Positions 480-60,830 of a stretch of DNA of 64,000 nucleotides are shown in pieces. The notes below the pieces were generated by a model. It was not told the origin of the DNA. It did not search any database and worked only from the letters and a program-made list of their open reading frames with translations. Made by a program: the position numbers and the translations under genes. How positions within the stretch are numbered: position 1 is the first letter of the stretch; the number at the start of each line of letters is the position of its first letter. The stretch is from an uncultured Syntrophaceae bacterium (GTDB taxonomy: Bacteria; Desulfobacterota; Syntrophia; Syntrophales; UBA2192), in NCBI GenBank assembly GCA_964619035.1, contig CAZUBX010000005.1, positions 2,643 through 66,642 of the forward strand. Direction: 5' to 3'.

Positions 480-485
480 AAAAGA

Positions 486-528
486 GGGTACTGGGAAAAT
501 GGGAATTGGGTAATGAAAAAGGAAGGGG
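486..528 (+). repeat. G-tract array (GGG every 7-8 nt) just after the patatin stop
   Basis: gggtactgggaaaatgggaattggg, with GGG runs at 486, 493, 501 and 508, then ggaagggg. Same periodic style as the other gene-end arrays. Confidence 0.5.
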
Positions 529-3252: not shown

Positions 3253-3287
3253 TTCAGGGGACAGGGTTTAGGGTACAGGGTTCAGAA
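3253..3287 (+). repeat. heptamer array (NNCAGGG)x5
   Basis: ttcaggg gacaggg tttaggg tacaggg ttcagaa, strict 7-nt period. Confidence 0.8.
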
Positions 3288-3427
3288 TATCGGGATAAAC
3301 ACAGAGAACCCGCCGAGAGGCTCACCCACATTCCCCGGGCTTATCTGTCAGAGACGGGGAGTATCGCGGTTTATAGCAGGGTGCTTGCTCTTTTTCAACC
3401 TTTTCCGTGCGAAACGTGCACACACGG

Positions 3428-3560
3428 AAGAGGGTTCAGGGGACAGGGTTCAGGGTCCAGGGAATGAGGGACGAGGAAGAAGTGCCTGAGTGCCGGAGAA
3501 AAGAAGTGGCTAGTGGTCTGTGTCTAGTAAAAAAGAGGGATTGAGGATTCGGGTTTCGGG
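3428..3560 (+). repeat. mosaic of several array flavours
   Basis: CAGGG heptamers at 3432-3462. Next come ggaatgagggacgagg, gaagaagtgcctgagtgcc (3476-3494), gaagtggctagtggtctgtgtctagt (3503-3528) and gattgaggattcgggtttcggg. Each has homologs at other loci in the window. Confidence 0.75.
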
Positions 3561-3561
3561 T

Positions 3562-3598
3562 GAAAGAAAAAGCCCCTGAACCGAAACGGCCGGGGCTT
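3562..3598 (-). terminator. probable intrinsic terminator of the EF-G gene
   Basis: Minus strand: agcccc/ggggct stem with an inner ccg/cgg helix, followed by uuuucuuuc. It sits about 60 nt after the EF-G stop. Confidence 0.45.
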
Positions 3599-3603
3599 TG
3601 CTG

Positions 3604-3652
3604 ATTCTATTTCTATTTCTTCCCTGTACCCGATACCCTGGACCCTATGCCC
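3604..3652 (-). repeat. heptamer array, reverse orientation (GGGNNNN on the minus strand)
   Basis: Plus strand tcttccc tgtaccc gataccc tggaccc tatgccc. It starts 4 nt after the EF-G stop codon. Confidence 0.8.
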
Positions 3653-3655
3653 GTT

Positions 3656-15940: not shown

Positions 15941-15950
15941 GACATTCCCA

Positions 15951-15985
15951 CAAGAAGGTAAGAACGTGAGAAGGTGAGAAGGTTG
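15951..15985 (+). repeat. short-period array (GTGAGAAG type)
   Basis: caagaaggtaagaacgtgagaaggtgagaaggttgg, 10 nt after the LysM gene stop. Related to the array at 47415-47440. Confidence 0.6.
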
Positions 15986-16054
15986 GATAGCCGAAAGGAA
16001 CTATCCATGAATCGTAAGTAATCCAACAAAAATAATGAGAGGATCAGATTTTTC

Positions 16055-17056: not shown

Positions 17057-17060
17057 AGAA

Positions 17061-17078
17061 GTGACCAGTGACCAGTGA
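17061..17078. repeat. heptamer array, CACTGGT flavour in reverse orientation
   Basis: gtgacca gtgacca gtga, 5 nt after the stop codon. Confidence 0.7.
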
Positions 17079-17122
17079 AAAAAGAAAAGGATCGAGATAA
17101 AAAATCTCGATCCTTTTCTTTT
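17077..17122. terminator. bidirectional terminator, conserved AGGATCGAG hairpin module
   Basis: Perfect 16-bp stem agaaaaggatcgagat/atctcgatccttttct (17083-17119), 5-nt loop, A-run before and T-run after, between convergent genes. Confidence 0.85.
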
Positions 17123-17123
17123 A

Positions 17124-17158
17124 TCCTTTGACCTTTACCCTTTAACCTTGAACCTCGT
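17124..17158. repeat. heptamer array (CCTTTNN)
   Basis: cctttga cctttac cctttaa ccttgaa cctcgtc, ending 2 nt before the DUF4301 gene stop. Confidence 0.7.
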
Positions 17159-17160
17159 CT

Positions 17161-22062: not shown

Positions 22063-22109
22063 CTCATTAATTGTATTGTCTTTGTCGTGCCACAGCCGGA
22101 GTAACGGGC

Positions 22110-22192
22110 GACAGGCTGCAGGCTACAGGCCTCAGAAAACTTTGAAAGCACGATTCTGTTGCCTGTGGCCTGTGGCCTGCGGCCTGTAGCCT
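22110..22192. repeat. inverted pair of CAGGCNN heptamer arrays (long imperfect hairpin)
   Basis: Left arm gacaggc tgcaggc tacaggc ctcagaaaac (22110-22140). Right arm gcctgtg gcctgtg gcctgcg gcctgta gcct (22161-22192) in the opposite orientation, abutting the aldolase stop. Confidence 0.75.
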
Positions 22193-23000
22193 ATTTTTTC
22201 TTCCGTGCCTTTCCCGCATCGGCTTTCACCGACTGGAAAAGATCAAGCGCCTGCTTCACCGACGCCTTCTCGTGGATGATCGCACCGAGGGCCCGGATCA
22301 TGGGCACGGGATTCGGGCTCTGCCAGATGTTGCGCCCCAGGTTGACGCCGACGGCGCCCCGCTTCATGCCGTCGTGAACGAAGGAGAGCACCTCCATCTC
22401 GGTCTCGCACTTGGGCCCGCCTGCCATGACGACGGGAACGGGGCAGCCTTCCACGACCTTGTCAAAGTTTTTGCACCAGTAGGTCTTGACGACTCGGGCC
22501 CCCAGCTCGGCGGCAATACGGCTGCTCAAGGCCAAGTAGCGGGCCTCTCTCTGCTCGAGCTCCTTGCCGACGGCGGTGACGGCCATCACGGGGATCCCGA
22601 AGTCCTCGCAGTCGTTCACCAGATCGGCCAGGTTCATCAGCGATTCGTGCTCGTAGTCGCTGCCCACGAAGATCGAGACCCCGACGGCTGCCGCATTGAG
22701 CCGCAGGATCTCCTCGATGGAAGTGGTCAGCGCCTCGTTGGCAAGGTCCTGACCGATGATGCTCGTGCCTCCGGAGACCCGGAGGATGATGGGCTTGCTT
22801 CCCGCGGGGACGACGCAATTTCTCAACACGCCGCGCGTGACGAAAAGGGCCTCGCACCAGGGCAGAAGCGGCGCGATGGTCTCCCCCGGCCTCTCCAGGC
22901 ATGACGTAGGCCCCTGGAAATAACCGTGGTCAATCGGCAGGAACAGGCAGCGCCCGTTGCGGAAAAGCTGAGACATCCGGTTCTTCATTCCCCAGTCCAT
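22191..23000 (-). CDS. class I aldolase, DhnA/LsrF/FbaB-like (DeoC/LacD superfamily)
   Basis: LPIDHG..., VKTYW (Schiff-base Lys region) and GVNLGRNIWQ are typical of the family. Confidence 0.75.
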   Translation of the reverse strand: MDWGMKNRMSQLFRNGRCLFLPIDHGYFQGPTSCLERPGETIAPLLPWCEALFVTRGVLRNCVVPAGSKPIILRVSGGTSIIGQDLANEALTTSIEEILRLNAAAVGVSIFVGSDYEHESLMNLADLVNDCEDFGIPVMAVTAVGKELEQREARYLALSSRIAAELGARVVKTYWCKNFDKVVEGCPVPVVMAGGPKCETEMEVLSFVHDGMKRGAVGVNLGRNIWQSPNPVPMIRALGAIIHEKASVKQALDLFQSVKADAGKARKKK

Positions 23001-23072: not shown

Positions 23073-23093
23073 AAGGCTGCAGGCTTCAGAAAG
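23073..23093 (+). repeat. CAGGCTT-flavour array, short copy
   Basis: aaggctgcaggcttcagaaag. It ends in the TCAGAAA shared by the other copies. Confidence 0.6.
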
Positions 23094-23120
23094 ACTTTTC
23101 CCCAAACCTGAATTCTTGTC

Positions 23121-23158
23121 CTTCACAAATCACAAGCCACTAGCCACTTCTTCACCGG
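23121..23158. repeat. heptamer array (GTGGCTA flavour, reverse orientation)
   Basis: cttcacaaatcacaagccactagccacttcttcaccgg is the reverse complement of the type seen at 3503-3528 and 42050-42079. It overlaps the stop codon of gene 23152..24150. Confidence 0.7.
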
Positions 23159-28039: not shown

Positions 28040-28046
28040 AGGACCG

Positions 28047-28156
28047 GGAAGCAAGGAACTTAGGAAGAGCAGAAGAGCGGATAGGAAAAAACGGACCGTT
28101 ATGGTTGTTTTTATTCTCTTGCCGATCTTCCGATCTTCCTCGCTTCCGATCTTCGC
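28047..28156. repeat. inverted 8-nt-period arrays (GGAANNNN / TTCCGATC)
   Basis: Left arm ggaagcaa ggaactta ggaagagc agaagagc ggatagga (28047-28090). Right arm cttgccgatc ttccgatc ttcctcgc ttccgatc ttcgcg (28118-28156). Confidence 0.7.
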
Positions 28157-28203: not shown

Positions 28204-29988
28204 GTGGTCCTCATGTTGCAGACGATAGACTGGGTCATCATCGGGCTCTACTTCCTGCTGAGCGCCTCAATCGGCCTCTACTACACCCGCCGCGCCGGTT
28301 CCAGCATCCAGGAGTTCTTCCTCTCGGGGCGCAATCTCCCCTGGTGGCTTGCCGGCACCTCCATGGTCGCCACGACCTTTGCGGCCGACACGCCGCTGGC
28401 CGTAACGGAGCTCGTGGCGAAACACGGTATCGCCGGCAACTGGTTCTGGTGGAATTTCGTTCTCGGTGCCGTGCTGACCGTCTTCTTCTTTGCCCGGTTG
28501 TGGCGGCGCGCAGGCATCCTCACCGACGTGGAGCTCATCGAGCTGCGCTACTCCGGCAAACCCGCCGCGTTTCTGCGCGGGTTCCGTGCCCTCTATCTCG
28601 GCCTTTTCATCAACACCGTCATCATCGGCTGGGTGAACCTGGCCATGGCCTCCGTCCTCGAGGGGATGTTCGGCATACCGCCGGGACAGGTCATGATCTA
28701 CGTGGCCCTGTCCCTGGGTTTCACGGCCCTTTACTCGGCCCTCTCCGGTCTCTGGGGAGTAGCCGTCACCGACGCCTTCCAGTTTGTCCTGGCCATGGCC
28801 GGGACGATCGTCCTGGCCGTTTTGGTCCTGGATCTTCCCCAGATCGGGGGTTTGGCGGGGCTCGTGGAGAAAGTGCCGTCCTGGTCGCTCTCTTTCGTCC
28901 CTGCAATCTCGGGCGGCACAGCCGCCGACTCGACGGGCACGCTCACCCTGGGCGCAGCAGCCTTTTTCGCCTTCATCGGCATCCAGTGGTGGGCCTGCTG
29001 GTACCCCGGGTCGGAACCCGGCGGGGGCGGTTACGTGGCCCAGCGGATGATGTCGGCCAAAGACGAGCGACACTCTCTTTTTGCAACCCTCTGGTTCACC
29101 GTGGCCCACTACTGCGTGAGGCCCTGGCCGTGGATTCTCGTGGGGCTTGCAACCCTTGTGCTCTATCCCGACCTGGGACCCGCGGAAAAGCGGCTGGGCT
29201 ATGTCTACGCGATGCGCGACTTCCTGCCGCCGGGCGTCAAGGGCATGCTTGTCGCCGCCTTCTTTGCCGCCTACATGTCGACGATCTCGACCCAGCTCAA
29301 CTGGGGCACCTCGTACATCATCAACGATTTCTACCGGCGCTTCGTCCGGCCCGACGCGGGCGAGAGGCACCTCGTTGCCGTCTCGCGGGTCGGCACGCTG
29401 GCCATGATGGCTTTTTCGCTCTACGTCACCTCGATCCTGGAAACGATCTCCGGCGCCTGGGCCTTCATCATCGAGGCCGGCGCCGGGCTGGGGCTTGTCC
29501 TGATCCTGCGCTGGTTCTGGTGGCGGATCAACGCCTGGAGCGAGATTGCCGCGATGGTGACACCCCTTGCCGCCTGCGGCTGGCTGCGTATCGCCACGGA
29601 TATCCGTTTCCCGGAGACCCTGTATGCCATCGTGGCGGCCACCACCGTCGCCTGGGTCCTGGTCACCTTCCTGACAGAACCGACCGATGCACAAACGCTC
29701 GAGCGTTTCTACCGGCGCGTGCACCCGGGCGGCCCAGGCTGGGCCTCCGTGGCAAAGAGGATCCCCGATGTGAAAGGGGACAGCGGCTACGGGAGGCTCC
29801 TTCGGGACTGGCTCTGCGGGGTGATCCTTGTCTATTCCGTGCTCTTCGGAACGGGGAAGATCCTTCTGCTGCAGACAGGAGAAGGGCTGATCTTTCTTGC
29901 CGTTGCCGGGGCGGCGGCGTGGGTGATATCATGCGACCTGGCAAAACAGGGTACAGGGCATAGGGTACAGGGTATAGGGGGAAAATGA
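28204..29988 (+). CDS. sodium:solute symporter (SSS) family transporter
   Basis: About 13 TM helices and an N-terminal FFLSGRNLPWWLAGTSMVATTFAADTP motif. The start is 28204 (GTG) or 28213 (ATG). The last 14 codons are encoded by a heptamer array. Confidence 0.85.
   Translation: MVLMLQTIDWVIIGLYFLLSASIGLYYTRRAGSSIQEFFLSGRNLPWWLAGTSMVATTFAADTPLAVTELVAKHGIAGNWFWWNFVLGAVLTVFFFARLWRRAGILTDVELIELRYSGKPAAFLRGFRALYLGLFINTVIIGWVNLAMASVLEGMFGIPPGQVMIYVALSLGFTALYSALSGLWGVAVTDAFQFVLAMAGTIVLAVLVLDLPQIGGLAGLVEKVPSWSLSFVPAISGGTAADSTGTLTLGAAAFFAFIGIQWWACWYPGSEPGGGGYVAQRMMSAKDERHSLFATLWFTVAHYCVRPWPWILVGLATLVLYPDLGPAEKRLGYVYAMRDFLPPGVKGMLVAAFFAAYMSTISTQLNWGTSYIINDFYRRFVRPDAGERHLVAVSRVGTLAMMAFSLYVTSILETISGAWAFIIEAGAGLGLVLILRWFWWRINAWSEIAAMVTPLAACGWLRIATDIRFPETLYAIVAATTVAWVLVTFLTEPTDAQTLERFYRRVHPGGPGWASVAKRIPDVKGDSGYGRLLRDWLCGVILVYSVLFGTGKILLLQTGEGLIFLAVAGAAAWVISCDLAKQGTGHRVQGIGGK
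29945..29981 (+). repeat. heptamer array (NNCAGGG/NNTAGGG)x5 inside the 3' end of the SSS gene
   Basis: aacaggg tacaggg catagggg-type units: aacagggtacagggcatagggtacagggtataggggg. Confidence 0.8.
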
Positions 29989-33219: not shown

Positions 33220-33244
33220 CCACAAGCCACAAGCCTCAAGAAAG
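33220..33244. repeat. heptamer array (CCACAAG type)
   Basis: ccacaag ccacaag cctcaag aaag, directly after the stop codon. Reverse complement of the GTGGCTT flavour. Confidence 0.7.
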
Positions 33245-33259
33245 AAAATCCCCCTCTTT

Positions 33260-33287
33260 CCCCCTTTGTTAAAGGGGGGTTTGTCTT
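33260..33287 (+). terminator. intrinsic terminator
   Basis: 8-bp stem cccccttt/aaaggggg, 3-nt loop, followed by gtttgtctt. Confidence 0.6.
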
Positions 33288-33378
33288 ATCCGTCTTCTCT
33301 TGTCCCTACACCCTCGTCCCCGGTCCCTTCTTTCTCCTTCACCGGTCACTGGCCACTGATCACTGGTCACTTCTTTCT
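33288..33378. repeat. heptamer arrays (GTCCCTN then CACTGGT flavours)
   Basis: 33302-33330 gtccctacaccctcgtccccggtcccttc is 28 of 29 identical to 56621-56649. It is followed by cttcaccggtcactggccactgatcactggtcacttc. Confidence 0.85.
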
Positions 33379-38074: not shown

Positions 38075-38123
38075 ATTGAAAGAGGGAATTGCTCCCTCCC
38101 CTTCCTTCTCTTGTATTTCTTTT

Positions 38124-38157
38124 CCCTGATACCCTATACCCGATACCCAATACCCGG
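38124..38157 (-). repeat. heptamer array, G-rich on the minus strand (GGGTATN)x5
   Basis: Plus strand ccctgat accctat acccgat acccaat acccgg, 15 nt after the dctM stop on the sense strand. Confidence 0.8.
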
Positions 38158-38171
38158 CGACGTCAGTCGCC

Positions 38172-42049: not shown

Positions 42050-42079
42050 GAAGTGATTCGTGGCTTGTGGCTAGTGTAG
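42050..42079. repeat. heptamer array (GTGGCTT/GTGGCTA flavour)
   Basis: gaagtgattcgtggcttgtggctagtgtag. Its tggctagtg is the exact reverse complement of cactagcca at 42158-42166. Confidence 0.75.
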
Positions 42080-42124
42080 AAAATAAAAAACAAAGGAATT
42101 CGAAGATCAATGACCCGATTGATT

Positions 42125-42175
42125 CTTTCACTGGTCACTGGTCACTGGTCACTGGTCACTAGCCACTGGTCACTG
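42125..42175. repeat. heptamer array (CACTGGT)x7
   Basis: ctttcactggtcactggtcactggtcactggtcactagccactggtcactg, the longest and cleanest array in the window. Confidence 0.9.
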
Positions 42176-42188
42176 CCGCGAAGCGGCT

Positions 42189-43139: not shown

Positions 43140-43419
43140 CGAAAACCGTCTTTCTGTTTTTGAAACCAATTTTCAAACTCCTTCGCCCCCGGAATCGCGC
43201 GATCCGCAATGCCGGGAACGCTCACAACGCCGCGGGACCAAACCTGTCCCGCTCAACGAACCGGTCAGCAACCGGCAAGAGCGAGAAAGACAACAAGCAT
43301 CAGCAGCCAGAACATGATGTTGCGCATAACCGTTGTCCGTTTCCTTGCGGGCATTGTGAACAGAACTACCCCGATAAGCAAGCAAAAAATGTACCCGTTG
43401 CGGCGTCCCTGGACGCCGC

Positions 43420-43454
43420 AGGCATCAGGCTTCAGGCATCGGGCTTCAGGAAAA
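43420..43454 (+). repeat. heptamer array (CAGGCWT flavour)
   Basis: aggcatc aggcttc aggcatc gggcttc aggaaaa. Confidence 0.8.
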
Positions 43455-43493
43455 AAGATAGGATCGAGGGAATGTCCCCCGATCCTATCTTCT
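43450..43493. terminator. bidirectional terminator, conserved AGGATCGAGG hairpin module
   Basis: agataggatcgaggg-aatgt-ccccgatcctatct, a 15-bp stem with one mismatch, an A-run before and a T-rich tract after. Confidence 0.75.
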
Positions 43494-43511
43494 TGTCCTC
43501 TTCTTTTTCTT

Positions 43512-43551
43512 CACTCAGACACTTAGACACTCAGGCACTCAGGCACTTTAC
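43512..43551. repeat. octamer array (CACTNAGR)
   Basis: cactcaga cacttaga cactcagg cactcagg cactttac. It overlaps the RidA stop codon. Confidence 0.75.
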
Positions 43552-51839: not shown

Positions 51840-52889
51840 ATGAGCGAGCGAAATGACTACATCAAGGCGATCAGCACGGTCGGCCGGGCCCTGGGCACGA
51901 CGATCGAGCGGGACACGCTTCTGCAGATGATTGTGAAATCCGCCGTCGACACGATGGATGGCAAGGCGGCCTGCCTTTTCCTGGCCACCGACGAGACGAA
52001 AGACCAGTACGCTGCCGTAGCCCAGACGGGGCTCTCCAAGAGCTATGTCCACGCCGCGCCGAGCCGGATGCTGCCCGTCATGAAGATGCTCAAGAAGGAC
52101 GGGTTCATCCACTACCGGGACGCCGCGAAGGACGAGCGCGTCCAGAACAAGGATGCCAAGGTCAAGGAGGGGATCGGATCCATCCTCGTCGTCCCCGTCG
52201 TCGTGAGGGACGAGATGATGGGAAGCCTTGCCCTCTATACGGAAAATATCCGTGATTTTTCGGAGAAAGAGATCGAGTTCCTCACGGTGCTCGCCGAGCA
52301 GGGCGGAATGGCCATCGAGAAGGCCCATCTGATCGAGAAACTGCGGAACAATACGCGGATCTTTCGCGATATCGCGACACACATCACGGCCAGCACGGAC
52401 ATCAAGACGATCCTCCAGACCCTCACGGAGGACGTGGCGAAGGCCATCGGTGTCAAGGCGGCAACACTGCGCCTGCTCGATGACAACCGCGTAACACTTC
52501 GGCTTGCGGCAAGTATCGGCCTCTCGGAGAAATACCTGAAGAAGGGCCCCATCTCGGCGGAAAAGAGCATCGCCCAGGCCCTCCAGGGCAAGCCAGTGGT
52601 GGTGAAGGATGCCGCCACCGACGCCGGCGTCCAGTACCGCGACGAGAAAAAAGAGGAAGGCATCGTCACGATCCTCAGCGTCCCCATCAAAACCCGTGAA
52701 GAGGTGATCGGCGTGCTGCGCCTTTACAGCGCGACCGCCCGGGAGTTCACGGAGGACGACATCCAGTTCGTGACGGCCATCGCCTACATGGGCGGGGTGG
52801 CCATCCAGAACATGAGCCTGTTGTCGATGCTGAAGGATGACGTGAAGGATTTGAGAGACAACGTCTGGATCTTCAAAAGCTGGTTCTAG
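51840..52889 (+). CDS. tandem GAF-domain protein without an output domain
   Basis: Two GAF-like repeats (each ending ...IGVLRLYS / ...MGSLALYT..F..E.I.FL). No HTH, kinase or cyclase region. Confidence 0.7.
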   Translation: MSERNDYIKAISTVGRALGTTIERDTLLQMIVKSAVDTMDGKAACLFLATDETKDQYAAVAQTGLSKSYVHAAPSRMLPVMKMLKKDGFIHYRDAAKDERVQNKDAKVKEGIGSILVVPVVVRDEMMGSLALYTENIRDFSEKEIEFLTVLAEQGGMAIEKAHLIEKLRNNTRIFRDIATHITASTDIKTILQTLTEDVAKAIGVKAATLRLLDDNRVTLRLAASIGLSEKYLKKGPISAEKSIAQALQGKPVVVKDAATDAGVQYRDEKKEEGIVTILSVPIKTREEVIGVLRLYSATAREFTEDDIQFVTAIAYMGGVAIQNMSLLSMLKDDVKDLRDNVWIFKSWF

Positions 52890-52890
52890 C

Positions 52891-52937
52891 GGCTTCGCCG
52901 CAGGCTTCAGGCTTCAGGCTACAGGCTTCAGAAAAAA
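52891..52937 (+). repeat. heptamer array (CAGGCTT)x4-5
   Basis: ggcttcgccgcaggcttcaggcttcaggctacaggcttcagaaaaaaa, between the GAF gene and phaJ, with no hairpin module. Confidence 0.85.
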
Positions 52938-52954
52938 ACAAAAAGGGGGATAAC

Positions 52955-53383
52955 ATGCTCGGGAAGACGATTGACGAGATGAATGTGGGTGATGCGGCGG
53001 AAATGGCCAAGACCGTCACCGAAACGGACGTCTACCTCTTTGCCGGGATCACGGGGGACTTCAACCCTGCCCACATCAACGAGGCCTATGCAAAGAATAC
53101 CTTTTTCAAGGGCAGGATCGCTCACGGGATGCTCTCGGCGGGATTCATCTCGGCGGTGCTCGCCATGAAACTGCCCGGCCCGGGGACCATCTACCTGAGC
53201 CAGTTCATGGAATTCAAGGCTCCCGTGCGCATCGGCGACACTGTCACGGCCCGCGTGGAGGTCAAGGAAAAGGTGACGGAGAAAAACCGGGTGAAGCTCC
53301 GGACGACCTGCGTGAACCAGGACGGCACGCTGCTCGTGGATGGCGAAGCCCTGATCATGCCGCCCAAGGCACCCAAAAAGTAA
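52955..53383 (+). CDS. phaJ: (R)-specific enoyl-CoA hydratase (MaoC-like hot-dog)
   Basis: FAGITGDFNPAHIN and RIAHGM hydratase motif, 142 aa. Confidence 0.8.
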   Translation: MLGKTIDEMNVGDAAEMAKTVTETDVYLFAGITGDFNPAHINEAYAKNTFFKGRIAHGMLSAGFISAVLAMKLPGPGTIYLSQFMEFKAPVRIGDTVTARVEVKEKVTEKNRVKLRTTCVNQDGTLLVDGEALIMPPKAPKK

Positions 53384-54609: not shown

Positions 54610-54712
54610 TGATAAAGGAAGTGGTCGTCTGTCTCTCGTCCCCTCACCGAGGATGCCGTGCTGAGGGAGTGGCCCATGGCGTGATGTTGCTTTGACCTGC
54701 AAGGAGAGGCCC

Positions 54713-56494
54713 ATGAAAAAGCAGAGCGCGGAGCGAATCTCCCCCAACGAACTTCTTGCCCTGATCGGGATAACCCCGGCAGACAACGCGGAAGGCTATC
54801 ACAACGCCGTCCCGTGGAAAAGCAAACTGGCGGGCGGGCAGGTCCGGTCGCTCTTCCGCTATCAGGAGCTGATGAAAACGGTGGCGGGCGAGCCCCTTCT
54901 TTTCGGACCCTGGGCCACGCTGGCGGGATGGCAGGCTACCCTGATGGAGTCTTACGTCACGGGGCCCATCAAGACGCAGGCGCGGACCGCCACGAGGGCG
55001 GGCCGCAACCCCGATGTCTTCGCCGAGATGAACAGCTGGATCTACCAGACCTATGCGAGGCTCCTCCAAAATCTCTGCAGCGGCTTCATCAAGAACGGGA
55101 AATTCGACCGGCAGGCGGCACTGGAGATCTCCTCGTCGGAAGACGGCAAGCAGCTCCTGCGCAACTACATGAAGGAGTTCCGGTCGCTCGAGATGTCCTA
55201 CAATTCCCGGGGGCTCACACGCCTCAAGGCCATGAAGGACCTCCTGAAATCGCTCCTGGTCCTCATCACGGAGCAACCGATCGAAGACATGCCCTTCATG
55301 AAGAAAAATCCCGACGGCAGCGACGGCATGTCGCTCGGCGCCTACCTGGAGGAAGGCCGGGCACGCATCGACGCCCTGTGGCGTCACAACGCCTTCGACA
55401 TCCGCGATTTCGCCGATCGCTTCATGGGGGGCAAAATCGGCTTTCTGCCCTACGAAGTGATCCAGGGCTCCCGCCTGCACTCGGTGACCCTTCGCTACTA
55501 CCCCCTCCCCAAGGGAATCGAGCCCAACGGTAAGGTCGTCTACCTGGCCACGCCGATGATCAACAGGCCTGAGATCTTCGATCTCGCCGAGGGGAAGTCC
55601 GTCGTCGAGGGCATGCTCAAGGAAGGCTATCACGTCTATCTCGTGGACCACGGCGACCCCGGTCCCGGGGAGACGAACCTGGGACTGGATTTCTTCGGCA
55701 AGACCGTCCCCGACACCTACTTCGAGATCATCCAGAAGCAACACCCCAGAGCTGAAATCTACATCATGGCCTACTGCATGGCAGGCACGCTGATGCTTCC
55801 ATGGCTTGCCCGCCGCGCCGAGGAGCGCATGGCCCGCGGCGAGCCGATGGATATCTGGAAGATCGCCGTCATGGCATCGCCGGTGAAATTCGACGACGGG
55901 GAGAGCGGACATGCCGCCATGCGCAAGATCATCCGCGAGGCCTACGACCCCCTCTTGATGAAGGAGCTCTACGGGGAAGTGAACGTCCCGGCCTACCTGA
56001 TCGAGGCGGGCATGAACGAGATCCAGCCCGGCGTCCAGCACACCGTGTCGATGGGTTTCTACGGCCGTGCTTACTGGCCCAATGCCATCGAGGACGCCGC
56101 GCCATTTTTGTACTGGCTCACCCACGGCACCAAGTTCCCCGCCCGGGCCCACCGGGAGTGGCTCGACCAGTTCTTCATGGGCAATGCCCTCGTCAAGGGC
56201 ACCTACACCCTGCCCTCCTCCGTCCCGGAGCTGGACGGCAAACCCGTGCGGATGGGAGCCCTGGACCAGGCCGGCGTCCTCATCTTCTGTTACCGCGGCA
56301 CCCGCGACCCCATCGCGCCTACGGGCTCCTGCGTATCCTGCGAGCTTTGGGGCGAGATCGGAAAAAACGTCGGCGTCTCCCGAGGGGGACTGAATCGACT
56401 CATCGAGAAGAACGTGGGCCACATCTTCGTGGTAAGCAAGGTCCTGCTGACGGAGTACCTGACGCTGGTCAACGACTTCTTCAAATCGTCGTGA
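54713..56494 (+). CDS. PhaC-like alpha/beta-hydrolase (long divergent PHA synthase paralog, 593 aa)
   Basis: Box AYCMAG with Cys in the nucleophile position, after VYLATPMINR. RBS aaggagagg before ATG 54713. Confidence 0.6.
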   Translation: MKKQSAERISPNELLALIGITPADNAEGYHNAVPWKSKLAGGQVRSLFRYQELMKTVAGEPLLFGPWATLAGWQATLMESYVTGPIKTQARTATRAGRNPDVFAEMNSWIYQTYARLLQNLCSGFIKNGKFDRQAALEISSSEDGKQLLRNYMKEFRSLEMSYNSRGLTRLKAMKDLLKSLLVLITEQPIEDMPFMKKNPDGSDGMSLGAYLEEGRARIDALWRHNAFDIRDFADRFMGGKIGFLPYEVIQGSRLHSVTLRYYPLPKGIEPNGKVVYLATPMINRPEIFDLAEGKSVVEGMLKEGYHVYLVDHGDPGPGETNLGLDFFGKTVPDTYFEIIQKQHPRAEIYIMAYCMAGTLMLPWLARRAEERMARGEPMDIWKIAVMASPVKFDDGESGHAAMRKIIREAYDPLLMKELYGEVNVPAYLIEAGMNEIQPGVQHTVSMGFYGRAYWPNAIEDAAPFLYWLTHGTKFPARAHREWLDQFFMGNALVKGTYTLPSSVPELDGKPVRMGALDQAGVLIFCYRGTRDPIAPTGSCVSCELWGEIGKNVGVSRGGLNRLIEKNVGHIFVVSKVLLTEYLTLVNDFFKSS

Positions 56495-56502
56495 CGCGCT
56501 TC

Positions 56503-56540
56503 GCGCAGGCTACAGGCTTCAGGCATCAGGCTTCTGGAAA
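56503..56540 (+). repeat. heptamer array (CAGGCWW flavour)
   Basis: gcgcaggc tacaggc ttcaggc atcaggc ttctggaaa, 9 nt after the stop. Confidence 0.85.
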
Positions 56541-56542
56541 CA

Positions 56543-56577
56543 AGAAAGGATCGAGGGATTGTCCCCCGATCCTTTTT
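56543..56577. terminator. bidirectional terminator, conserved AGGATCGAGG hairpin module
   Basis: agaaaggatcgaggg-attgt-cccccgatcctttttct. Confidence 0.75.
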
Positions 56578-56596
56578 CTTTGCCTTGCTGCCTTTT

Positions 56597-56684
56597 CTTC
56601 ACTCAGGCACTTGTTTACCGGTCCCTACACCCTCGTCCCTGGTCCCTTCTTCCACTGGTCACTGGTCACCGGTCACCGGTCACT
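56597..56684. repeat. array mosaic (CACTCAGG, GTCCCTN and CACTGGT flavours)
   Basis: cttcactcaggcac, then gtccctacaccctcgtccctggtcccttc, then ttccactggtcactggtcaccggtcaccggtcact. It ends 6 nt before the HPP stop. Confidence 0.85.
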
Positions 56685-56690
56685 ATTTTT

Positions 56691-57182
56691 TCAGGTCAGA
56701 TCCCGCAGGTAGGGCTTAAAAAAATGGTGGATCAGGGAAAGCAGGACGATGCTCAGGACAACGGTGATCAACACATCCGGATGCATCCCCGTAATGGCAA
56801 CTCCAAGAGCGGTCCCCGAAGCAGGGGGGTGTTCCGTGTCCGTGACGACCATGGTGAAGATGGAGAGACCGACGGCCGCTGAATAGCAGACAAGGCTGCC
56901 GAACAAGGTGGCGTGGGGAATCAGGGAAAACACAAACCCCCAGAAGAGCCCGACGACGTGGCCGCCGATGACATTCCTCGCGTTGGCCGTGAGAGCCTTG
57001 GGCATCGCAAAGACGATGAAGGCCGTAGCCCCGATGGAGGCGATGATGACCGCGTTCTGCAGGGTCAGAAAATAAAGGACAGCAAAAACGGCAACGGTTG
57101 CAAACAGGCTCTGAAAAACGTAGTTCTTCCAGTGAAGCCGGAATTCATCGATCATTTTACGAACGGATCGCTTCATAATCAC
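56691..57182 (-). CDS. HPP family membrane protein
   Basis: 4-5 TM helices and a TDTEHPPASGTAL motif (HPP signature). Confidence 0.8.
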   Translation of the reverse strand: MIMKRSVRKMIDEFRLHWKNYVFQSLFATVAVFAVLYFLTLQNAVIIASIGATAFIVFAMPKALTANARNVIGGHVVGLFWGFVFSLIPHATLFGSLVCYSAAVGLSIFTMVVTDTEHPPASGTALGVAITGMHPDVLITVVLSIVLLSLIHHFFKPYLRDLT

Positions 57183-57227: not shown

Positions 57228-57315
57228 GAAATGGGCAAGCAAATAGTGCCGGTAGTGAACAAGGTCTTACTGCGGAGTACCACACGTGGTCAACAACTTC
57301 TTCAAATCGTCCTGA
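57228..57315 (+). pseudogene. relic 3' end of a phaC-like gene (frame-disrupted duplicate of 56405-56494)
   Basis: Encodes ..GKQIVPVVNKVLL.. then, after a frameshift, VVNNFFKSS-stop. The intact gene ends ..GHIFVVSKVLLTEYLTLVNDFFKSS-stop. The nucleotide similarity continues into the repeat module. Confidence 0.5.
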
Positions 57316-57323
57316 AGCGCCTC

Positions 57324-57354
57324 GCGCGGGCTCCAGGCATCAGGCTTCAGAAAA
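57324..57354 (+). repeat. heptamer array (CAGGCWW flavour), one unit shorter than 56503-56540
   Basis: gcgcgggctccaggcatcaggcttcagaaaa. Confidence 0.8.
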
Positions 57355-57356
57355 CA

Positions 57357-57391
57357 AGAAAGGATCGAGGAATTGTCCCTCGATCCTTTTT
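57357..57391. terminator. bidirectional terminator, conserved AGGATCGAGG hairpin module
   Basis: agaaaggatcgagg-aattgtc-cctcgatcctttttct, 20 nt from the Usp gene stop. Confidence 0.75.
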
Positions 57392-57411
57392 CTTTGCCTC
57401 GCGGCCGAAGA

Positions 57412-59198: not shown

Positions 59199-60497
59199 TT
59201 AATGATAATCCGAGCTTCGCTTGTGTGATTCAGCGGCGAAGTACACGGCCACCACCGTGATCAGGGCCAGACAGATCATGTAAACCGAGATGGGCCACGT
59301 CTCGGGCTTGAACGTCATGAGCAGCCAGGTGCCGATAAGCGGGGAAAGGGCGCCGGCAAAGATGGAGGCCATGTTGTAGCCGAGCGACACTCCGCTGTAA
59401 CGGATCTTCGTGCCGAACATCTCGGAGAGGAAGCTTGCCTGCGGGCCGTACATCGCCGCATGGCCGACCGCCAGACCTAAAACGATGCCGATCCACCCCA
59501 GGTAGGCTATCTTCGTACCCATGAGCCAGAAGAGGGGGAAGGACATCACCGCCGAGAACACCGCGCCGAAGATGTACACGGGCCGCCGGCCGATCTTGTC
59601 GGAAAGCAGGCCGAACATGGGAATCGTGAACACTTCGATGGTGGCGGCAATCATGACGCCGTTCAGGATGGACTGACGGGGCATACCCAGGGCCTGCGTT
59701 GCGTACATCATGACAAAGACTGCGTAGATATAGAAGAACCCGTTTTCCGCAAAGCGCGCGCCCATGGCCAGTAAAATCTCTTTGGGATGCTGTTTAATCG
59801 ACTCGATAATGGGCATCCTGACTTCTTGCTTTTTGTCCTTGATCTTCTGGAACTGCGGCGATTCGGCAATTCTGCCTCGAATATACAGGCCGACGACAAT
59901 CAGAACGATGCTGACCAGGAAGGGAACGCGCCAGCCCCAATCCATGAATTCAGCGTCGGGCAGGATTGCAGCAATGACCGTGAAAACCATCGTGCCGAGA
60001 ACGAGTCCCAGGGGCGCTCCGAGCTGCGGCCAGCTTCCGTAGAATCCTCGCCGATTGTCCGGTGCGTGCTCGACTGCCATGAGAACGGCGCCTCCCCACT
60101 CACCGCCAAGGGCGAAACCCTGGAAAAGACGGCAAACGATCAAAAGGACCGGAGCCCAGATGCCTACACTGTCGTAGGTGGGCAGAAGCCCGATGCAGAA
60201 TGTCGCGATACCCATGATCAGCAGGGTCAAATAGAGCATCGTCTTTCGGCCGATCCGGTCGCCATAGTGACCGAATACCAGGCCTCCCAACGGACGGGCT
60301 GCAAAACCGACGGCATAGGTTGCAAATGCCGCAAGCGTTCCGGTCATGGGGTCCATTTTTGGGAAAAACAACTTGTTGAACACGAGTGCAGCGGCAGTCC
60401 CGTAAATGAAGAAATCGTACCACTCGATGGCGGTTCCGATCAGACTGGCCGTTGCGACCTTGACGTGAGATCTCATTCCACCAGTTTGCTCACTCAT
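59199..60497 (-). CDS. MFS transporter, metabolite:H+ symporter (MHS) family
   Basis: IEWYDFFIYG and GHYGDRIGRK motifs, 12 TM helices. ATG at 60497 follows ggaaggaggaaggag. Confidence 0.85.
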   Translation of the reverse strand: MSEQTGGMRSHVKVATASLIGTAIEWYDFFIYGTAAALVFNKLFFPKMDPMTGTLAAFATYAVGFAARPLGGLVFGHYGDRIGRKTMLYLTLLIMGIATFCIGLLPTYDSVGIWAPVLLIVCRLFQGFALGGEWGGAVLMAVEHAPDNRRGFYGSWPQLGAPLGLVLGTMVFTVIAAILPDAEFMDWGWRVPFLVSIVLIVVGLYIRGRIAESPQFQKIKDKKQEVRMPIIESIKQHPKEILLAMGARFAENGFFYIYAVFVMMYATQALGMPRQSILNGVMIAATIEVFTIPMFGLLSDKIGRRPVYIFGAVFSAVMSFPLFWLMGTKIAYLGWIGIVLGLAVGHAAMYGPQASFLSEMFGTKIRYSGVSLGYNMASIFAGALSPLIGTWLLMTFKPETWPISVYMICLALITVVAVYFAAESHKRSSDYH

Positions 60498-60626
60498 TCT
60501 ATCTCCTTCCTCCTTCCTGAGCATTAGATAAAAGCTAAATAATTACAATTAGTTAATATTGTGGATCGAAAAAAGCACCTCCTTTCTGTTTTACTTGTAT
60601 GATACATGAATTCAATGTCCCTATTC

Positions 60627-60641
60627 GCAAATTATGTGCCA
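60627..60641 (-). promoter_or_regulatory. sigma54 (-24/-12) promoter of the MFS/dehydrogenase operon
   Basis: Minus strand reads TGGCAC-ATAAT-TTGC, a full consensus match. About 118 nt upstream of ATG 60497 and downstream of the PAS-sigma54 activator gene. Confidence 0.65.
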
Positions 60642-60723
60642 GAAATGAACACAGCAAACAATCATTCAACTATATGTAATTATTGATACTTTATTATAAA
60701 GTACGCAGCTGCCACAGCAAGTC

Positions 60724-60743
60724 GTGTAGCATATTGTCTACAC
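60724..60743. promoter_or_regulatory. inverted repeat, candidate enhancer site
   Basis: GTGTAG-8 nt-CTACAC, about 85-100 bp upstream of the sigma54 promoter. Confidence 0.35.
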
Positions 60744-60804
60744 ATTGTCGCTCTAAATGAAAAACTGCATTGATAATGGTGTGTTAAGCAACGTGTACCC
60801 AATA

Positions 60805-60818
60805 GTCTATATGTAGAC
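60805..60818. promoter_or_regulatory. inverted repeat, candidate enhancer site
   Basis: GTCTA-TATG-TAGAC. It shares the TGTAGAC/GTCTACA core with 60724-60743. Confidence 0.3.
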
Positions 60819-60830
60819 TTATGTATACAG

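What the first reader, a model, noticed from the sequence alone, without database searches (positions are those of the whole stretch)
56503..56690. Dispersed mosaic repeat family at gene ends: 7-8-nt-period tandem arrays in recurring flavours flanking a conserved terminator hairpin
At least 18 intergenic sites in 64 kb carry short tandem arrays with a strict 7-nt (sometimes 8- or 10-nt) period. They usually start within 0-15 nt of a stop codon. The arrays fall into recurring flavours. (1) CAGGCTT type: 22110-22140, 23073-23093, 43420-43454, 52891-52937, 56503-56540 and 57324-57354, nearly all ending in TCAGAAAA, with an inverted copy at 22161-22192. (2) CACTGGT type: 33337-33373, 42125-42175 and 56650-56684, with an inverted copy at 17061-17078. 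(3) CAGGGTA type: 3253-3287, 3432-3462 and 29945-29981, with inverted copies at 3604-3652 and 38124-38157. (4) GTGGCTA/GTGGCTT type: 3503-3528 and 42050-42079, with inverted copies at 23121-23158 and 33220-33244. (5) CACTCAGG type: 43512-43551 and 56597-56613, with an inverted copy at 3476-3494. (6) GTCCCTN type: 33302-33330 and 56621-56649, which are 28 of 29 identical. Four sites also share a hairpin module built on AGGATCGAGG...CCTCGATCCT with A/T flanks (17083-19, 43456-90, 56543-77, 57357-91). The shared ends and shared modules show a dispersed, recombining element family in the REP/BIME style, not independent slippage. I do not recognise it as a described family. One speculation concerns arrays of a 7-nt motif in 3' UTRs. 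They resemble the architecture of protein-titrating RNAs such as CsrB/RsmZ and could be platforms for an RNA- or ssDNA-binding protein.
Basis: seen in the sequence. Interest (0 to 1): 0.65.

Follow-up and report, generated by a model that had tools for sequence, protein, structure and literature searches.

The report
Heptanucleotide repeat arrays at gene ends
Many genes in this uncultured Syntrophaceae genome are followed, right after the stop codon, by 3-7 tandem 7- or 8-base units built on a shared CAG(G/T) core; these arrays resemble the long-known but unexplained heptanucleotide repeats of cyanobacteria and Geobacter, and their strand rule points to a role in the transcript.

Summary
The window holds 18 tandem arrays of period 7, 8 or 10, against about 0 in shuffles. 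Almost all are non-coding. The recurring flavours and the four copies of the GGATCGAGG hairpin are at the stated coordinates.

New findings:
- Every flavour shares one unit plan: a conserved core, C-A-G-(G/T)-S, plus two variable junction bases.
- 28 of 30 arrays next to a stop codon carry the core on that gene's sense strand.
- Opposite-sense arrays come second, after a central hairpin.
- Arrays are kept at orthologous sites in 12 of 13 related species (84-97% protein identity), while unit number and flavour change.
- Two different terminator hairpin cassettes occupy the same site in different species.
- One copy (57260-57406) is a segmental duplication that carries 58 nt of coding sequence.
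- No transposase or Rfam family was found.

The closest known things are cyanobacterial STRR repeats and the paired tandem repeats of Geobacter metallireducens, both of unknown function.

Best reading, at moderate confidence: transcribed 3'-UTR and intercistronic elements that offer a multivalent single-strand binding platform. HutP, which reads XAG triplets at a 7-nt period beside a terminator, is the precedent. The arrays expand by slippage and spread by recombination. Selfish or neutral repeats remain a serious rival.

The parts
56495..56509 (+). GC mini-hairpin (CGCGC-TTC-GCGC) directly after the TGA stop of the 600-aa gene; its 3' arm runs into the first array unit
   Evidence: Conserved in 12 of 13 orthologous flanks. 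Similar mini-hairpins precede arrays at 52890, 43395, 42176-42188 (- strand) and 38158-38171 (- strand).
56503..56540 (+). Sense array of 4-5 units of NCAGGCW (CAGGCTA CAGGCTT CAGGCAT CAGGCTT CTGGAAA) in the 3' UTR of gene 54692-56494
   Evidence: Orthologous arrays of 3-5 units occur in 12 species; L001 lacks it.
56541..56592 (.). Hairpin cassette A (AAGAAAGGATCGAGGG-loop-CCCCCGATCCTTTTTCTT). An A-tract lies before it and a T-tract after it, so it looks like a terminator on both strands
   Evidence: Other species carry a different cassette B at the same site. Alignment with L003 ends at 56587.
56597..56690 (-). Three consecutive arrays that read as sense arrays for the converging HPP gene (56691-57182): AGTGACC x5, AGGGACN x4, AGTGCCTG x2
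   Evidence: 56621-56651 is a 97% copy of 33302-33332, and 56647-56685 is a 92% copy of 42123-42161.
57260..57406 (+). Segmental duplicate of 56437-56592 (84% identity): 58 nt of coding 3' end, mini-hairpin, 3 CAGGC units and hairpin A. It now lies next to the stop of the - strand Usp gene (57412)
52890..52937 (+). Intercistronic sense array (CGGC-TTC-GCCG mini-hairpin plus CAGGCTT x4 plus CAGAAAA) between the GAF gene and the MaoC gene, with no terminator
   Evidence: An array is present at this site in 12 of 13 species, with three flavours and 4-6 units.
43395..43551 (.). Composite: mini-hairpin, CAGGCNN x4 (+), hairpin A (43456-43490), and (AGTGYCTN)x5 read on the - strand directly after the stop of gene 43548-43964
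   Evidence: 43417-43524 is an 85% copy of 56504-56612.
42050..42188 (-). After the stop of gene 42189-43169 on the - strand: GCCGC-TTC-GCGGC mini-hairpin and (AGTGACC)x7. The distal GTGGCTN units (42050-42079) are in the opposite sense
38123..38171 (-). GGCGAC-TGAC-GTCGCC mini-hairpin and (GGGTATN)x5 after the stop of the DctM gene (38172-39458)
33220..33374 (.). CCACAAG x3 directly after the stop at 33219, a cassette-B-like hairpin (33245-33285), then GTCCCTN x4 and CACTGGT x5 upstream of the GntR gene
   Evidence: These are distal opposite-sense arrays in a co-directional spacer.
29945..29981 (+). CAGGGTA-type array x5 that forms the last 13 codons of the symporter ORF and ends at the start of the next gene
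28040..28150 (.). Purine-rich 8-9-nt units after the stop at 28039, a short hairpin, then (TCTTCCGA)x4 in the opposite sense
22103..22195 (-). (AGGCCNC)x5 starting in the TAG stop of the DeoC gene (22191-23000), and its inverted partner 22103-22140. The two arms can pair
   Evidence: z = -3.1 and -4.4.
23073..23151 (-). (GTGGCTN / GTGATTT)x4 after the stop of gene 23152-24150, with a distal opposite-sense CAGGCTN x2 at 23073-23093
17057..17160 (.). Convergent spacer: (AGTGACC)x2.7 for the + gene, a hairpin A variant (GGATCGAGAT...ATCTCGATCC), and (AAGGNTA)x5 for the - gene
   Evidence: z = -5.9 and -4.3. The inner stem differs from other copies at paired positions on both arms.
15950..15990 (+). 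Period-8 sense array (AGAAGGTG)x4, 9 nt after the stop at 15940
   Evidence: The same flavour occurs in L001, L002, L007 and L008.
3253..3655 (.). 414-nt spacer holding six arrays around a terminator at about 3560-3603. CAGGGNN arrays (3253-3287, 3431-3464), AGTGCCTG (3476-3494) and GTGGCTN (3503-3528) read on the + strand. GGGTAYN x5 (3604-3655) reads on the - strand after the EF-G-like stop at 3656
480..515 (+). Weaker 7-8-nt units (GGGTACT GGGAAAAT GGGAATT GGGTAAT) directly after the stop at 479. Similar short runs occur at 9965-9985 and 47403-47446 (period 10)

Best explanation
What it is (shown). This is a lineage-specific family of short tandem 7- or 8-nt arrays, STRR-like, in the 3'-untranslated and intercistronic DNA of a roughly 60% G+C Syntrophaceae (Syntrophales) genome.
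- Each unit has a conserved 5-nt core, C-A-G-(G/T)-S, plus two variable junction bases.
- An array starts 0-12 nt after a stop codon, often behind a GC mini-hairpin, with the core on the sense strand of that gene.
- It is commonly followed by one of at least two interchangeable, dispersed terminator hairpin cassettes. After that come arrays of the opposite sense. These belong to the converging gene or precede the next start codon.

How it changes (shown or directly inferred).
- Arrays gain and lose units by slippage.
- New unit variants spread along an array (concerted evolution).
- Whole array-hairpin segments are copied or deleted by recombination between loci and between the same-sense heptads that flank the hairpin.

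What it does (inferred). The arrays are transcribed as unstructured single-stranded RNA. They act as multivalent platforms for an oligomeric RNA-binding protein that reads the CAG(G/T) core at a fixed 7-nt register. The precedent is HutP, which reads XAG triplets at a 7-nt period beside a terminator stem; TRAP reads GAG/UAG repeats in a similar way. Binding would tune termination, readthrough or 3'-end stability of many mRNAs.
For: - Period-7/8 arrays are far above chance and specific to non-triplet periods 7 and 8.
- They are nearly absent from coding DNA and from divergent promoter spacers, and dense where a gene ends.
- An unbiased register search across flavours converges on N-C-A-G-(G/T)-S-W, with G at 94%.
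- Within arrays, 40% and 29% of units vary at the two junction positions, against 0-4% at the GG positions (chi-square p about 1e-18). This is a core-plus-spacer pattern typical of repeated protein sites, not of neutral decay.
- 28 of 30 arrays within 15 nt of a stop carry the core on the sense strand; in the window it is 11 of 11.
- In convergent spacers the two arms have different flavours. The rule is therefore not just the symmetry of one palindromic element.
- In co-directional spacers, 20 sense arrays lie a median of 6 nt from the stop.
- Single arrays are unstructured (z about 0).
- Position is conserved while sequence turns over. The GAF-MaoC spacer has an array in 12 of 13 species, with three flavours. 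The 600-aa gene flank has one in 12 of 13, and distant relatives also have CAAGG, CAGGTTA or TAGG arrays there.
- The array-hairpin module is 74-77% identical where four-fold degenerate sites of the adjacent gene are 54-64% identical.
- Metatranscriptome contigs contain the arrays with many different flanks.
- HutP precedent: XAG motifs at U498, U505 and U512 (period 7) on both sides of a terminator stem (PMC2425495).
Against: - No binding protein has been identified; only 64 kb of the genome is available.
- There are no strand-specific or 3'-end RNA data. The contigs have no direction, and DNA carry-over is possible.
- Opposite-sense arrays just upstream of start codons in co-directional spacers (12 cases) are not explained by a 3'-UTR platform.
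- The flavours differ enough (CAGGCTT, AGTGACC, AAGGNTA, GGGTATC) that a single reader protein would need relaxed specificity.
- Two arrays break the sense rule (L004 17662 and L007 17124). By flavour, 33220 does too, although it still reads (AAG-N4)n in the sense direction.
- Concerted evolution or gene conversion among many genomic copies could mimic both the conserved core and the higher-than-synonymous conservation.
- Orthologous arrays are not independent, so the p-values are inflated.
Confidence: 0.4

Rival explanations
1. Selfish or neutral repeat DNA. Small mobile or recombinogenic hairpin cassettes, with slippage-prone heptad arrays around them, accumulate wherever insertions are tolerated, which is at 3' gene ends. 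The shared core and orientation would then reflect common descent and the mechanics of insertion and expansion, not function.
For: - Composite segments are copied between loci at 84-85% identity.
- Cassettes A and B replace each other at exactly the same site.
- Same-sense heptads flank the hairpin on both sides, as if it had been inserted into an array, and L001 has lost the entire module.
- Synteny ends at the cassette edge.
- Unit numbers vary and 14-nt super-periods occur.
- Arrays are rare in the related low-GC Smithella group.
- From memory only, since the paper is not held: Elhai et al. 2008 described very small mobile repeats in Nostoc.
Against: - No transposase in the window.
- One copy carries coding sequence, so it arose by duplication and not transposition.
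- Variation is strongly position-specific within units.
- The sense rule holds although the two arms differ in flavour.
- Position is retained across species in which synonymous sites are near saturation.
Confidence: 0.3
2. DNA-level sites. The tandem repeats, often paired in opposite orientation, bind a nucleoid-associated or other DNA-binding protein. IHF/HU was proposed for the analogous Geobacter metallireducens sites. Binding would organise or insulate gene ends.
For: - The architecture of paired arrays on opposite strands at variable distance matches the G. metallireducens class 1-3 sites (PMC2700814).
- Opposite-sense arrays near start codons are easier to explain at the DNA level.
- REP/BIME elements set a precedent by binding IHF and gyrase (own knowledge).
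Against: - A 7-bp register rotates successive sites by about 240 degrees on B-DNA, which is awkward for cooperative duplex binding.
- The orientation tracks the direction of the adjacent gene.
- Single arrays without a partner are common.
Confidence: 0.12
3. G-quadruplex or R-loop elements. G-tracts on the non-template (RNA-sense) strand form G4 structures or R-loops that slow RNA polymerase and reinforce termination.
For: Nine of 12 canonical G3N1-7 x4 motifs in the window are intergenic. Seven of those nine lie in arrays listed under parts, and an eighth array motif (29949-29972) lies in the symporter ORF tail. Where an adjacent gene end can be assigned, these motifs are on the sense strand.
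Against: - The commonest flavours (CAGGCTT, AGTGACC, GTGGCTN, AAGGNTA) have no G3 tracts.
- CAGGC arrays have a GC skew of about 0.
- The intercistronic array at 52890 has no terminator role.
Confidence: 0.06
4. Rho loading sites for antisense or readthrough transcripts. The complement of a sense array is C-rich (NNSCCTG) and offers YC dinucleotides at regular spacing. Transcripts entering a gene end from the wrong side would then be terminated.
For: The opposite-strand reading of every sense array gives an unstructured run with one CCUG per unit.
Against: - The Rho primary site needs a spacer of at least 7 nt between adjacent YC dinucleotides, so a period of at least 9 (PMC5314796). A 7-nt period gives only a 5-nt spacer.
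- CAGGC-type arrays are not C>G biased on the antisense strand.
Confidence: 0.05
5. CsrA/RsmA-type titration. The arrays would sequester a CsrA-like GGA-binding regulator.
For: Many closely spaced GG-containing units. Some terminal units and the foot of hairpin A contain GGA (CAGGAAA, AAAGGATC).
Against: - The core is CAGG followed by C, G or T. GGA is absent from most units.
- The units are not presented in hairpin loops.
- The arrays are parts of mRNAs, not dedicated sRNA genes.
- The only Rsm-family Rfam hit is noise (RsmY, 12.8 bits against a 57-bit threshold, E = 0.95).
Confidence: 0.04

Closest known systems
Cyanobacterial STRR (short tandemly repeated repetitive) sequences
   Same: Tandem 7-bp units dispersed over many non-coding sites. 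They are often near hairpins or between genes of an operon. Their function is unknown, with proposals of transcript stability or translational coupling (PMC2670836). From memory, STRR1 (CCCCAGT) and STRR3 (CAACAGT) can be written with a CAGT core like the AGTGACC flavour here.
   Different: Different phylum (Syntrophales, not heterocystous cyanobacteria) and different unit sequences. The stop-codon adjacency, sense-strand rule, core-plus-spacer anatomy and interchangeable terminator cassettes shown here have not, to my knowledge, been reported for STRR. I could not read the primary STRR papers, which are not held.
Geobacter metallireducens multicopy tandem-repeat sites (classes 1-3 and the Gmet_H4 heptanucleotide family; Aklujkar et al. 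2009)
   Same: Three to five tandem 7-9-nt units in intergenic DNA, mostly as pairs on opposite strands at variable distance, in tens of copies per genome, in the same broad group of former Deltaproteobacteria. Class 3 (MTYCTGA, whose reverse complement is TCAGRAK) shares the CAG core.
   Different: The consensus units differ (GTTGCTYN, TCTCCGTS, MTYCTGA, GGACCGG). The H4 family also occurs inside genes. The authors interpreted the sites as IHF/HU-type DNA sites and reported no relation to stop codons or strand.
REP / BIME / REPIN elements of Proteobacteria
   Same: Extragenic, concentrated at 3' gene ends and between convergent genes. They form a mosaic of recurring modules in both orientations. 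Hairpin modules can act as terminators or mRNA stabilisers.
   Different: A REP unit is an imperfect palindrome mobilised by a RAYT transposase (PMC3116915). Here the repeated units are unstructured tandem heptads. No RAYT was found in the window. The one clear copy event is a segmental duplication that includes coding sequence.
HutP and TRAP RNA targets (Bacillus)
   Same: Repeated XAG triplets at a fixed register (7 nt for HutP), read by a ring-shaped oligomer and placed beside a terminator stem (PMC2425495). This is the closest mechanistic precedent for a core-plus-spacer tandem RNA site.
   Different: Those are single, gene-specific 5' leader attenuators with 6-11 triplets. Here there are hundreds of predicted sites in 3' UTRs. 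No HutP or TRAP gene is seen in the window. This is a resemblance in how it might work, not membership.
Phase-variable simple sequence repeats (for example the 7-bp repeats in Haemophilus influenzae hmw promoters and the neuO heptanucleotide repeats)
   Same: Tandem heptanucleotide units whose number changes by slippage.
   Different: Contingency loci use perfect repeats inside promoters or 5' coding regions of surface or virulence genes. These arrays are imperfect, lie 3' of housekeeping genes, and unit number does not affect a reading frame or promoter spacing.

Membership tests
STRR-type dispersed tandem heptanucleotide repeats | Head-to-tail units of 7 bp, several copies per site | tested here: met
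   Tandem Repeats Finder and the lag scan: 14 period-7 arrays of 2.7-7 units in the window.
STRR-type dispersed tandem heptanucleotide repeats | Many non-coding sites per genome, with a few recurring unit types | tested here: met
   18 arrays in 64 kb. 49 arrays in 288 kb of window plus related loci, of which 48 are non-coding. Six to eight recurring flavours.
STRR-type dispersed tandem heptanucleotide repeats | The STRR1-3 consensus heptamers and a heterocystous cyanobacterial host | tested here: not met
   The host clade is Syntrophaceae/Syntrophales. The units are CAGGCTT, CAGGGTA, AGTGACC and others. The STRR consensus sequences are recalled from memory only.
REP/BIME/REPIN | The repeated unit is an imperfect palindrome (hairpin) of about 20-40 nt | tested here: not met
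   Arrays alone fold no better than shuffles (z from -0.2 to +0.9 on the sense strand for 52890, L001 and similar). Only the separate cassettes A and B are palindromic.
REP/BIME/REPIN | A cognate RAYT (IS200/IS605-like Y1 transposase) in the genome | tested here: inconclusive
   No transposase domain was found among the window's genes scanned against Pfam. The rest of the genome is not available.
REP/BIME/REPIN | Extragenic location, enriched at 3' ends and convergent spacers | tested here: met
   Density per kb: 2.16 convergent, 1.41 co-directional, 0.25 divergent, 0.004 coding.
G. metallireducens tandem-repeat 'global regulator' sites | Three to five tandem 7-9-nt units, mostly in pairs on opposite strands at variable distance | tested here: met
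   Pairs at 3253-3655, 22103-22195, 28040-28150, 56503-56690 and L004-L007 at about 8.1-8.3 kb. Single arrays also occur.
G. metallireducens tandem-repeat 'global regulator' sites | Consensus units GTTGCTYN, TCTCCGTS(Y), MTYCTGA or GGACCGG | tested here: not met
   None of the window flavours matches. Only the CAG core of class 3 is shared.
HutP/TRAP-type RNA target | XAG triplets at a fixed short register on the transcribed strand | tested here: met
   A at 76% and G at 94% in adjacent unit positions at a 7- or 8-nt period. Sense strand in 28 of 30 arrays. The HutP period of 7 is from PMC2425495.
HutP/TRAP-type RNA target | A cognate ring protein encoded in the genome, with the site in a 5' leader controlling downstream genes | tested here: not met
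   No such gene in the window. The sites are 3' of stop codons.
CsrB/RsmZ-type sponge RNA | Many GGA motifs presented in hairpin loops of a stand-alone sRNA | tested here: not met
   The core is CAGG followed by C, G or T, and the arrays are unstructured. They are continuous with mRNAs. No Rfam match reached threshold.

The most novel reading that the evidence does not exclude
The arrays are the cis half of an unrecognised, genome-wide bacterial 3'-UTR system. An oligomeric RNA-binding protein would read CAG(G/T) cores at a 7-nt register immediately after stop codons, at roughly a thousand sites per genome by extrapolation. It would set termination readthrough and 3'-end stability. The same logic might underlie cyanobacterial STRR repeats, the Geobacter tandem-repeat sites and the (CAGGGAA/CAGGGAT)n arrays seen in many high-GC soil and sediment contigs.
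Probability: 0.12. Interest if true: 0.85.

Novelty: new member of a known kind. Interest (0 to 1): 0.5.

Why it matters
Dispersed tandem heptanucleotide repeats have been known in cyanobacteria since about 1990 (from memory) and in Geobacter since 2009, and no function has been assigned to them. This window and its relatives add concrete, testable rules:
- a shared 5-nt core plus a 2-nt spacer;
- the sense strand directly after the stop codon;
- retention of position with turnover of sequence;
- interchangeable terminator cassettes.

These rules favour an RNA-level role. They define simple experiments, such as pull-down with core versus mutated repeats, Term-seq and reporters. If a reader protein exists, it would be a global post-transcriptional or termination regulator in syntrophic bacteria and perhaps beyond. 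If not, the family is a clean case of how small repeats and terminators are shuffled between gene ends by recombination.

Tried and rejected
- Rfam at gathering threshold on the whole window, and at E<=1 on three array regions, gave only sub-threshold noise.
- tRNA and tmRNA scan: none found.
- RNA structure as the unifying feature was rejected. Only spacers with a terminator hairpin or a complementary array pair fold better than shuffles. Single arrays do not. There is no consistent sense-versus-antisense energy difference that would reveal G-U-dependent RNA pairing.
- A palindromic MITE was rejected for most sites, because the two arms around a hairpin have different flavours.
- Rho rut sites: the 7-nt period is too short for adjacent primary sites.
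- G-quadruplex as a general explanation: only the GGG flavours qualify.
- Orientation analysis of 120 metagenome contigs carrying (CAGGSNN)n was uninformative. The lineages are mixed, some hits are eukaryotic telomere-like arrays, and my ORF calls in high-GC contigs are crude.
- Exact-protein look-up of the 600-aa product found nothing, probably because of the start-codon choice.
- Metatranscriptome runs are held only as contigs, so no strand or 3'-end information was available.
- The primary STRR and small-dispersed-repeat papers (Vioque 1997, Elhai 2008) are not held. One literature search was wasted on a term that was too loose.
Full report
**Observation**

The sequence at 56495-56690 is the 196-nt spacer between two converging genes. 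One is a 600-aa protein with no Pfam domain, ending at 56494 on the + strand. The other is an HPP-family membrane protein, 56691-57182 on the - strand.

The spacer reads as follows:
- TGA stop, then CGCGC-TTC-GCGC;
- CAGGCTA CAGGCTT CAGGCAT CAGGCTT CTGGAAA;
- AAGAAAGGATCGAGGG-ATTGT-CCCCCGATCCTTTTTCTT;
- a run of pyrimidine-rich units: CACTCAGG, GTCCCTN x4 and CACTGGT x5. These reach the stop codon of the - strand gene.

My own lag-match scan (at least 16 of 21 matches) finds 14 period-7, 3 period-8 and 1 period-10 arrays in the window. Markov shuffles give 0.0-0.2, and periods 4, 5, 11 and 13 give none. Periods 6, 9 and 12 appear only inside genes.

**Organism and relatives**

A search with the 600-aa protein returned 37 loci from species-representative genomes. 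Thirteen are Syntrophaceae or Syntrophales metagenome-assembled genomes with 56-64% G+C and 84-97% protein identity (L001-L013). The other 24 are Smithella-like genomes (40-57% G+C, most 40-51%) with 47-64% identity.

Period-7 arrays are a property of the first group. It has 26 arrays in about 225 kb, against about 4 in about 400 kb in the second group. The window's genes are ordinary metabolic and regulatory genes, including a polyhydroxyalkanoate cluster. No transposase was found. No Rfam family matches.

**Where the arrays are**

Over the window plus L001-L013, array density per kb is:
- 2.16 in convergent spacers;
- 1.41 in co-directional spacers;
- 0.25 in divergent (promoter-promoter) spacers;
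- 0.004 in coding DNA.

The one 'coding' case in the window is 29945-29981, which supplies the last 13 codons of a symporter ORF.

**Anatomy of a unit**

I oriented the 26 period-7 arrays that lie within 20 nt of a stop codon in the sense of that gene. I then let an expectation-maximisation search choose the register. All flavours but one fall into a single pattern, N-C-A-G-(G/T)-S-W, with C 72%, A 76%, G 94% and G/T 93%.

Within arrays, units differ from their own consensus at the two junction positions in 40% and 29% of cases. At the GG positions they differ in 0-4% of cases (chi-square p about 1e-18). Each unit is therefore a 5-nt core plus a 2-nt variable spacer. The 8-nt flavours (GAGAAGGT, GAGTGCCT, AAGAGGGT) keep an AG at the same place.

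**Strand rule**

Of 30 arrays within 15 nt of exactly one stop codon, 28 have more NAG(G/T) cores on the sense strand of that gene. In the window the count is 11 of 11.

In convergent spacers each gene gets its own sense array, and the two arms usually differ in flavour. Examples are AGTGACC versus AAGGNTA at 17.1 kb, and CAGGCTT versus AGTGACC/AGGGACN at 56.5 kb. The rule is therefore not simply the symmetry of one palindromic element.

In co-directional spacers, 20 sense arrays lie a median of 6 nt from the stop. Twelve opposite-sense arrays lie a median of 84 nt from the stop, so they come second and sit closer to the next start codon. The general layout is: stop, optional GC mini-hairpin, sense array, optional hairpin cassette, opposite-sense array, then the next gene end or start.

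**Structure**

Spacers with a cassette, or with a complementary pair of arrays, fold better than shuffles (z from -3 to -6). Single arrays do not (z about 0). There is no consistent difference between sense and antisense folding energies. Stable RNA or DNA structure is therefore a property of the cassettes, not of the arrays.

**Evolution**

The flank of the 600-aa gene is informative:
- Twelve of 13 species keep TGA, the GCGC-TTC-GCGC mini-hairpin and 3-5 CAGGCNN or CGGNCNN units.
- The hairpin that follows is cassette A in seven genomes.
- It is an unrelated cassette B (AAATCCCCCTCT.TCCCCCTTT..AAAGGGGGA.GAAAGGGGGATTTT) in five. A B-like copy sits at window 33245-33285.
- Behind either cassette come further same-sense units (TGCGGCT TGAGGCT), as if the hairpin had been inserted into an array.
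- L001 lacks the whole module.

The GAF-MaoC intercistronic spacer holds an array in 12 of 13 species, in three flavours. These are CAGGCNN with 4-6 units, RGGCTNA, and CAGGGNN plus an inverted CCCGATA array. The flavours do not follow the protein tree. The window's GAF gene itself is a divergent allele relative to its flanks (86-89% against 94-97% identity to L003), so recombination between lineages is active here.

More distant relatives have CAAGGTN, TCAGGTTA or TGTTAGGN arrays at the same gene end.

The array-plus-cassette module is 74-77% identical between genomes whose four-fold degenerate sites are only 54-64% identical.

Within the window, 57260-57406 is an 84% copy of 56437-56592 that includes 58 nt of coding sequence. 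43417-43524 is an 85% copy of 56504-56612. Alignment with L003 stops at the right edge of cassette A, at 56587.

Taken together, arrays expand and contract in place, new unit variants spread along an array, and array-hairpin blocks move by recombination or duplication.

**Expression**

Public metatranscriptome assemblies contain the CACTGGT array joined to many different flanks, one of them at very high k-mer depth. These contigs carry no strand information, and DNA carry-over cannot be excluded. The result is therefore only weak support for transcription.

**Interpretation**

Four features point to a multivalent single-strand ligand read in the transcript:
- the core-plus-spacer anatomy;
- the strict 7/8-nt register, with no arrays at periods 4, 5 or 11 even though these would be equally tolerated in non-coding DNA;
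- the lack of structure;
- the sense-strand rule and the retention of position.

The best precedent is HutP. This hexamer binds XAG motifs spaced 7 nt apart (U498, U505, U512) on both sides of a terminator stem. TRAP does the same with GAG/UAG repeats (PMC2425495). I propose this as how the arrays work, not as family membership. The sites here are 3' of genes and very numerous, and no such protein is seen in the window.

The main rival is that the family is selfish or neutral DNA that survives only at gene ends. This rival is supported by cassette swapping, copying, loss and synteny breaks. It is weakened by the position-specific constraint and the strand rule.

Other ideas fit less well:
- DNA-level binding, as proposed for Geobacter (PMC2700814).
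- G-quadruplexes. Seven of the nine intergenic canonical motifs lie in the arrays listed under parts, but only the GGG flavours qualify.
- Rho loading. The primary site needs a spacer of at least 7 nt between YC dinucleotides (PMC5314796).
- CsrA titration. There is no GGA motif, there are no loops, and there is no stand-alone sRNA.

**Comparison with known families**

Descriptively this is a new member of the class of dispersed tandem heptanucleotide repeats. That class is known as STRR in heterocystous cyanobacteria: 7-bp repeats of unknown function, with suggested roles in transcript stability or translational coupling (PMC2670836). It is also known as the paired tandem-repeat sites of G. 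metallireducens.

It is not a REP/BIME/REPIN family by the tests I could run. A metagenome scan shows that (CAGGSNN)n arrays occur in more than 120 contigs from many environments. Some of these are bacterial contigs with the same layout of array, hairpin and inverted array (L066, L132, L144). Many others are eukaryotic telomere-like repeats. Because the pattern itself imposed the core, this scan does not test whether the core is general.

**Verdict**

This is a real, statistically solid and lineage-wide feature. REP-like mobility and the CsrB analogy are not supported. Function remains inferred. Interest is moderate, because the kind is known but unexplained, and the rules found here make it testable.

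Noticed in passing
window 689-729 and 12171-12209: A second, unrelated dispersed hairpin repeat (GGTGGATGGAAAGGAGGGA(A)CCAAAA(A)CCATCC(G/A)CCGAT), 90% identical over 41 nt, in two long gene-poor spacers.
   Followed up: no
window 46849-47124 and 47155-47418; also 47475-49067 and 54692-56494: There are two tandem paralogous small ORFs (91 and 87 aa, about 72% nucleotide identity). There are also two large proteins (530 and 600 aa). None has a Pfam hit. All sit inside a polyhydroxyalkanoate gene cluster (PhaR, depolymerase, PhaE, PhaC, MaoC). The 600-aa protein is conserved across Syntrophales and Smithella.
   Followed up: partly
window 51500-53000 versus L003: The GAF-domain gene is a divergent allele (86-89% nucleotide identity) inside a region that is otherwise 94-97% identical to L003. 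The right edge of the divergent tract falls at the array at 52.9 kb. This suggests a recombination tract bounded by intergenic spacers.
   Followed up: partly
window 56587-56690 versus L001-L004, L007, L008: Gene content after hairpin cassette A differs between close relatives. The window goes straight to the HPP gene. L001, L002, L004, L007 and L008 have a 680-aa - strand gene there. L003 and L011 have other genes. The synteny break sits at the cassette edge.
   Followed up: partly
window 56653-56684, run X5: In one sediment metatranscriptome the CACTGGT array region has a contig k-mer depth of about 2,467. The neighbouring genes are at 0-5, and there are many different flanks. Either a highly expressed RNA elsewhere carries this array, or many loci collapse in the assembly.
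   Followed up: no
window 29945-29988: The sodium:solute symporter ORF reads through a CAGGGTA array (...KQGTGHRVQGIGGK*). Its stop overlaps the next gene's ATG (ATGA). The array has therefore become, or replaced, the C-terminal tail of the protein.
   Followed up: partly
window 3288-3431: A 144-nt stretch lies between two + sense CAGGG arrays. It has no ORF with a Pfam hit and no Rfam hit, and it is followed by + sense arrays and a terminator at about 3560-3603. It could be a small + strand transcript (sRNA or small ORF) divergent from the sigma-54 activator gene.
   Followed up: partly
window 11453-12964 and 60477-60830: These are unusually long, AT-richer non-coding stretches (1,512 and 354 nt). 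The first holds stand-alone terminator-like hairpins. The second lies directly downstream of a sigma-54 activator gene and upstream of an MFS transporter gene. No arrays occur in either.
   Followed up: no
L066, L113, L132, L144 (metagenome contigs, 57-69% G+C): Unrelated bacterial contigs show the same layout. A (CAGGGNN)n array is followed by a short hairpin or nothing, then by an inverted or different-flavour array. In L144 it lies between converging ORFs, with arrays touching both stops.
   Followed up: partly
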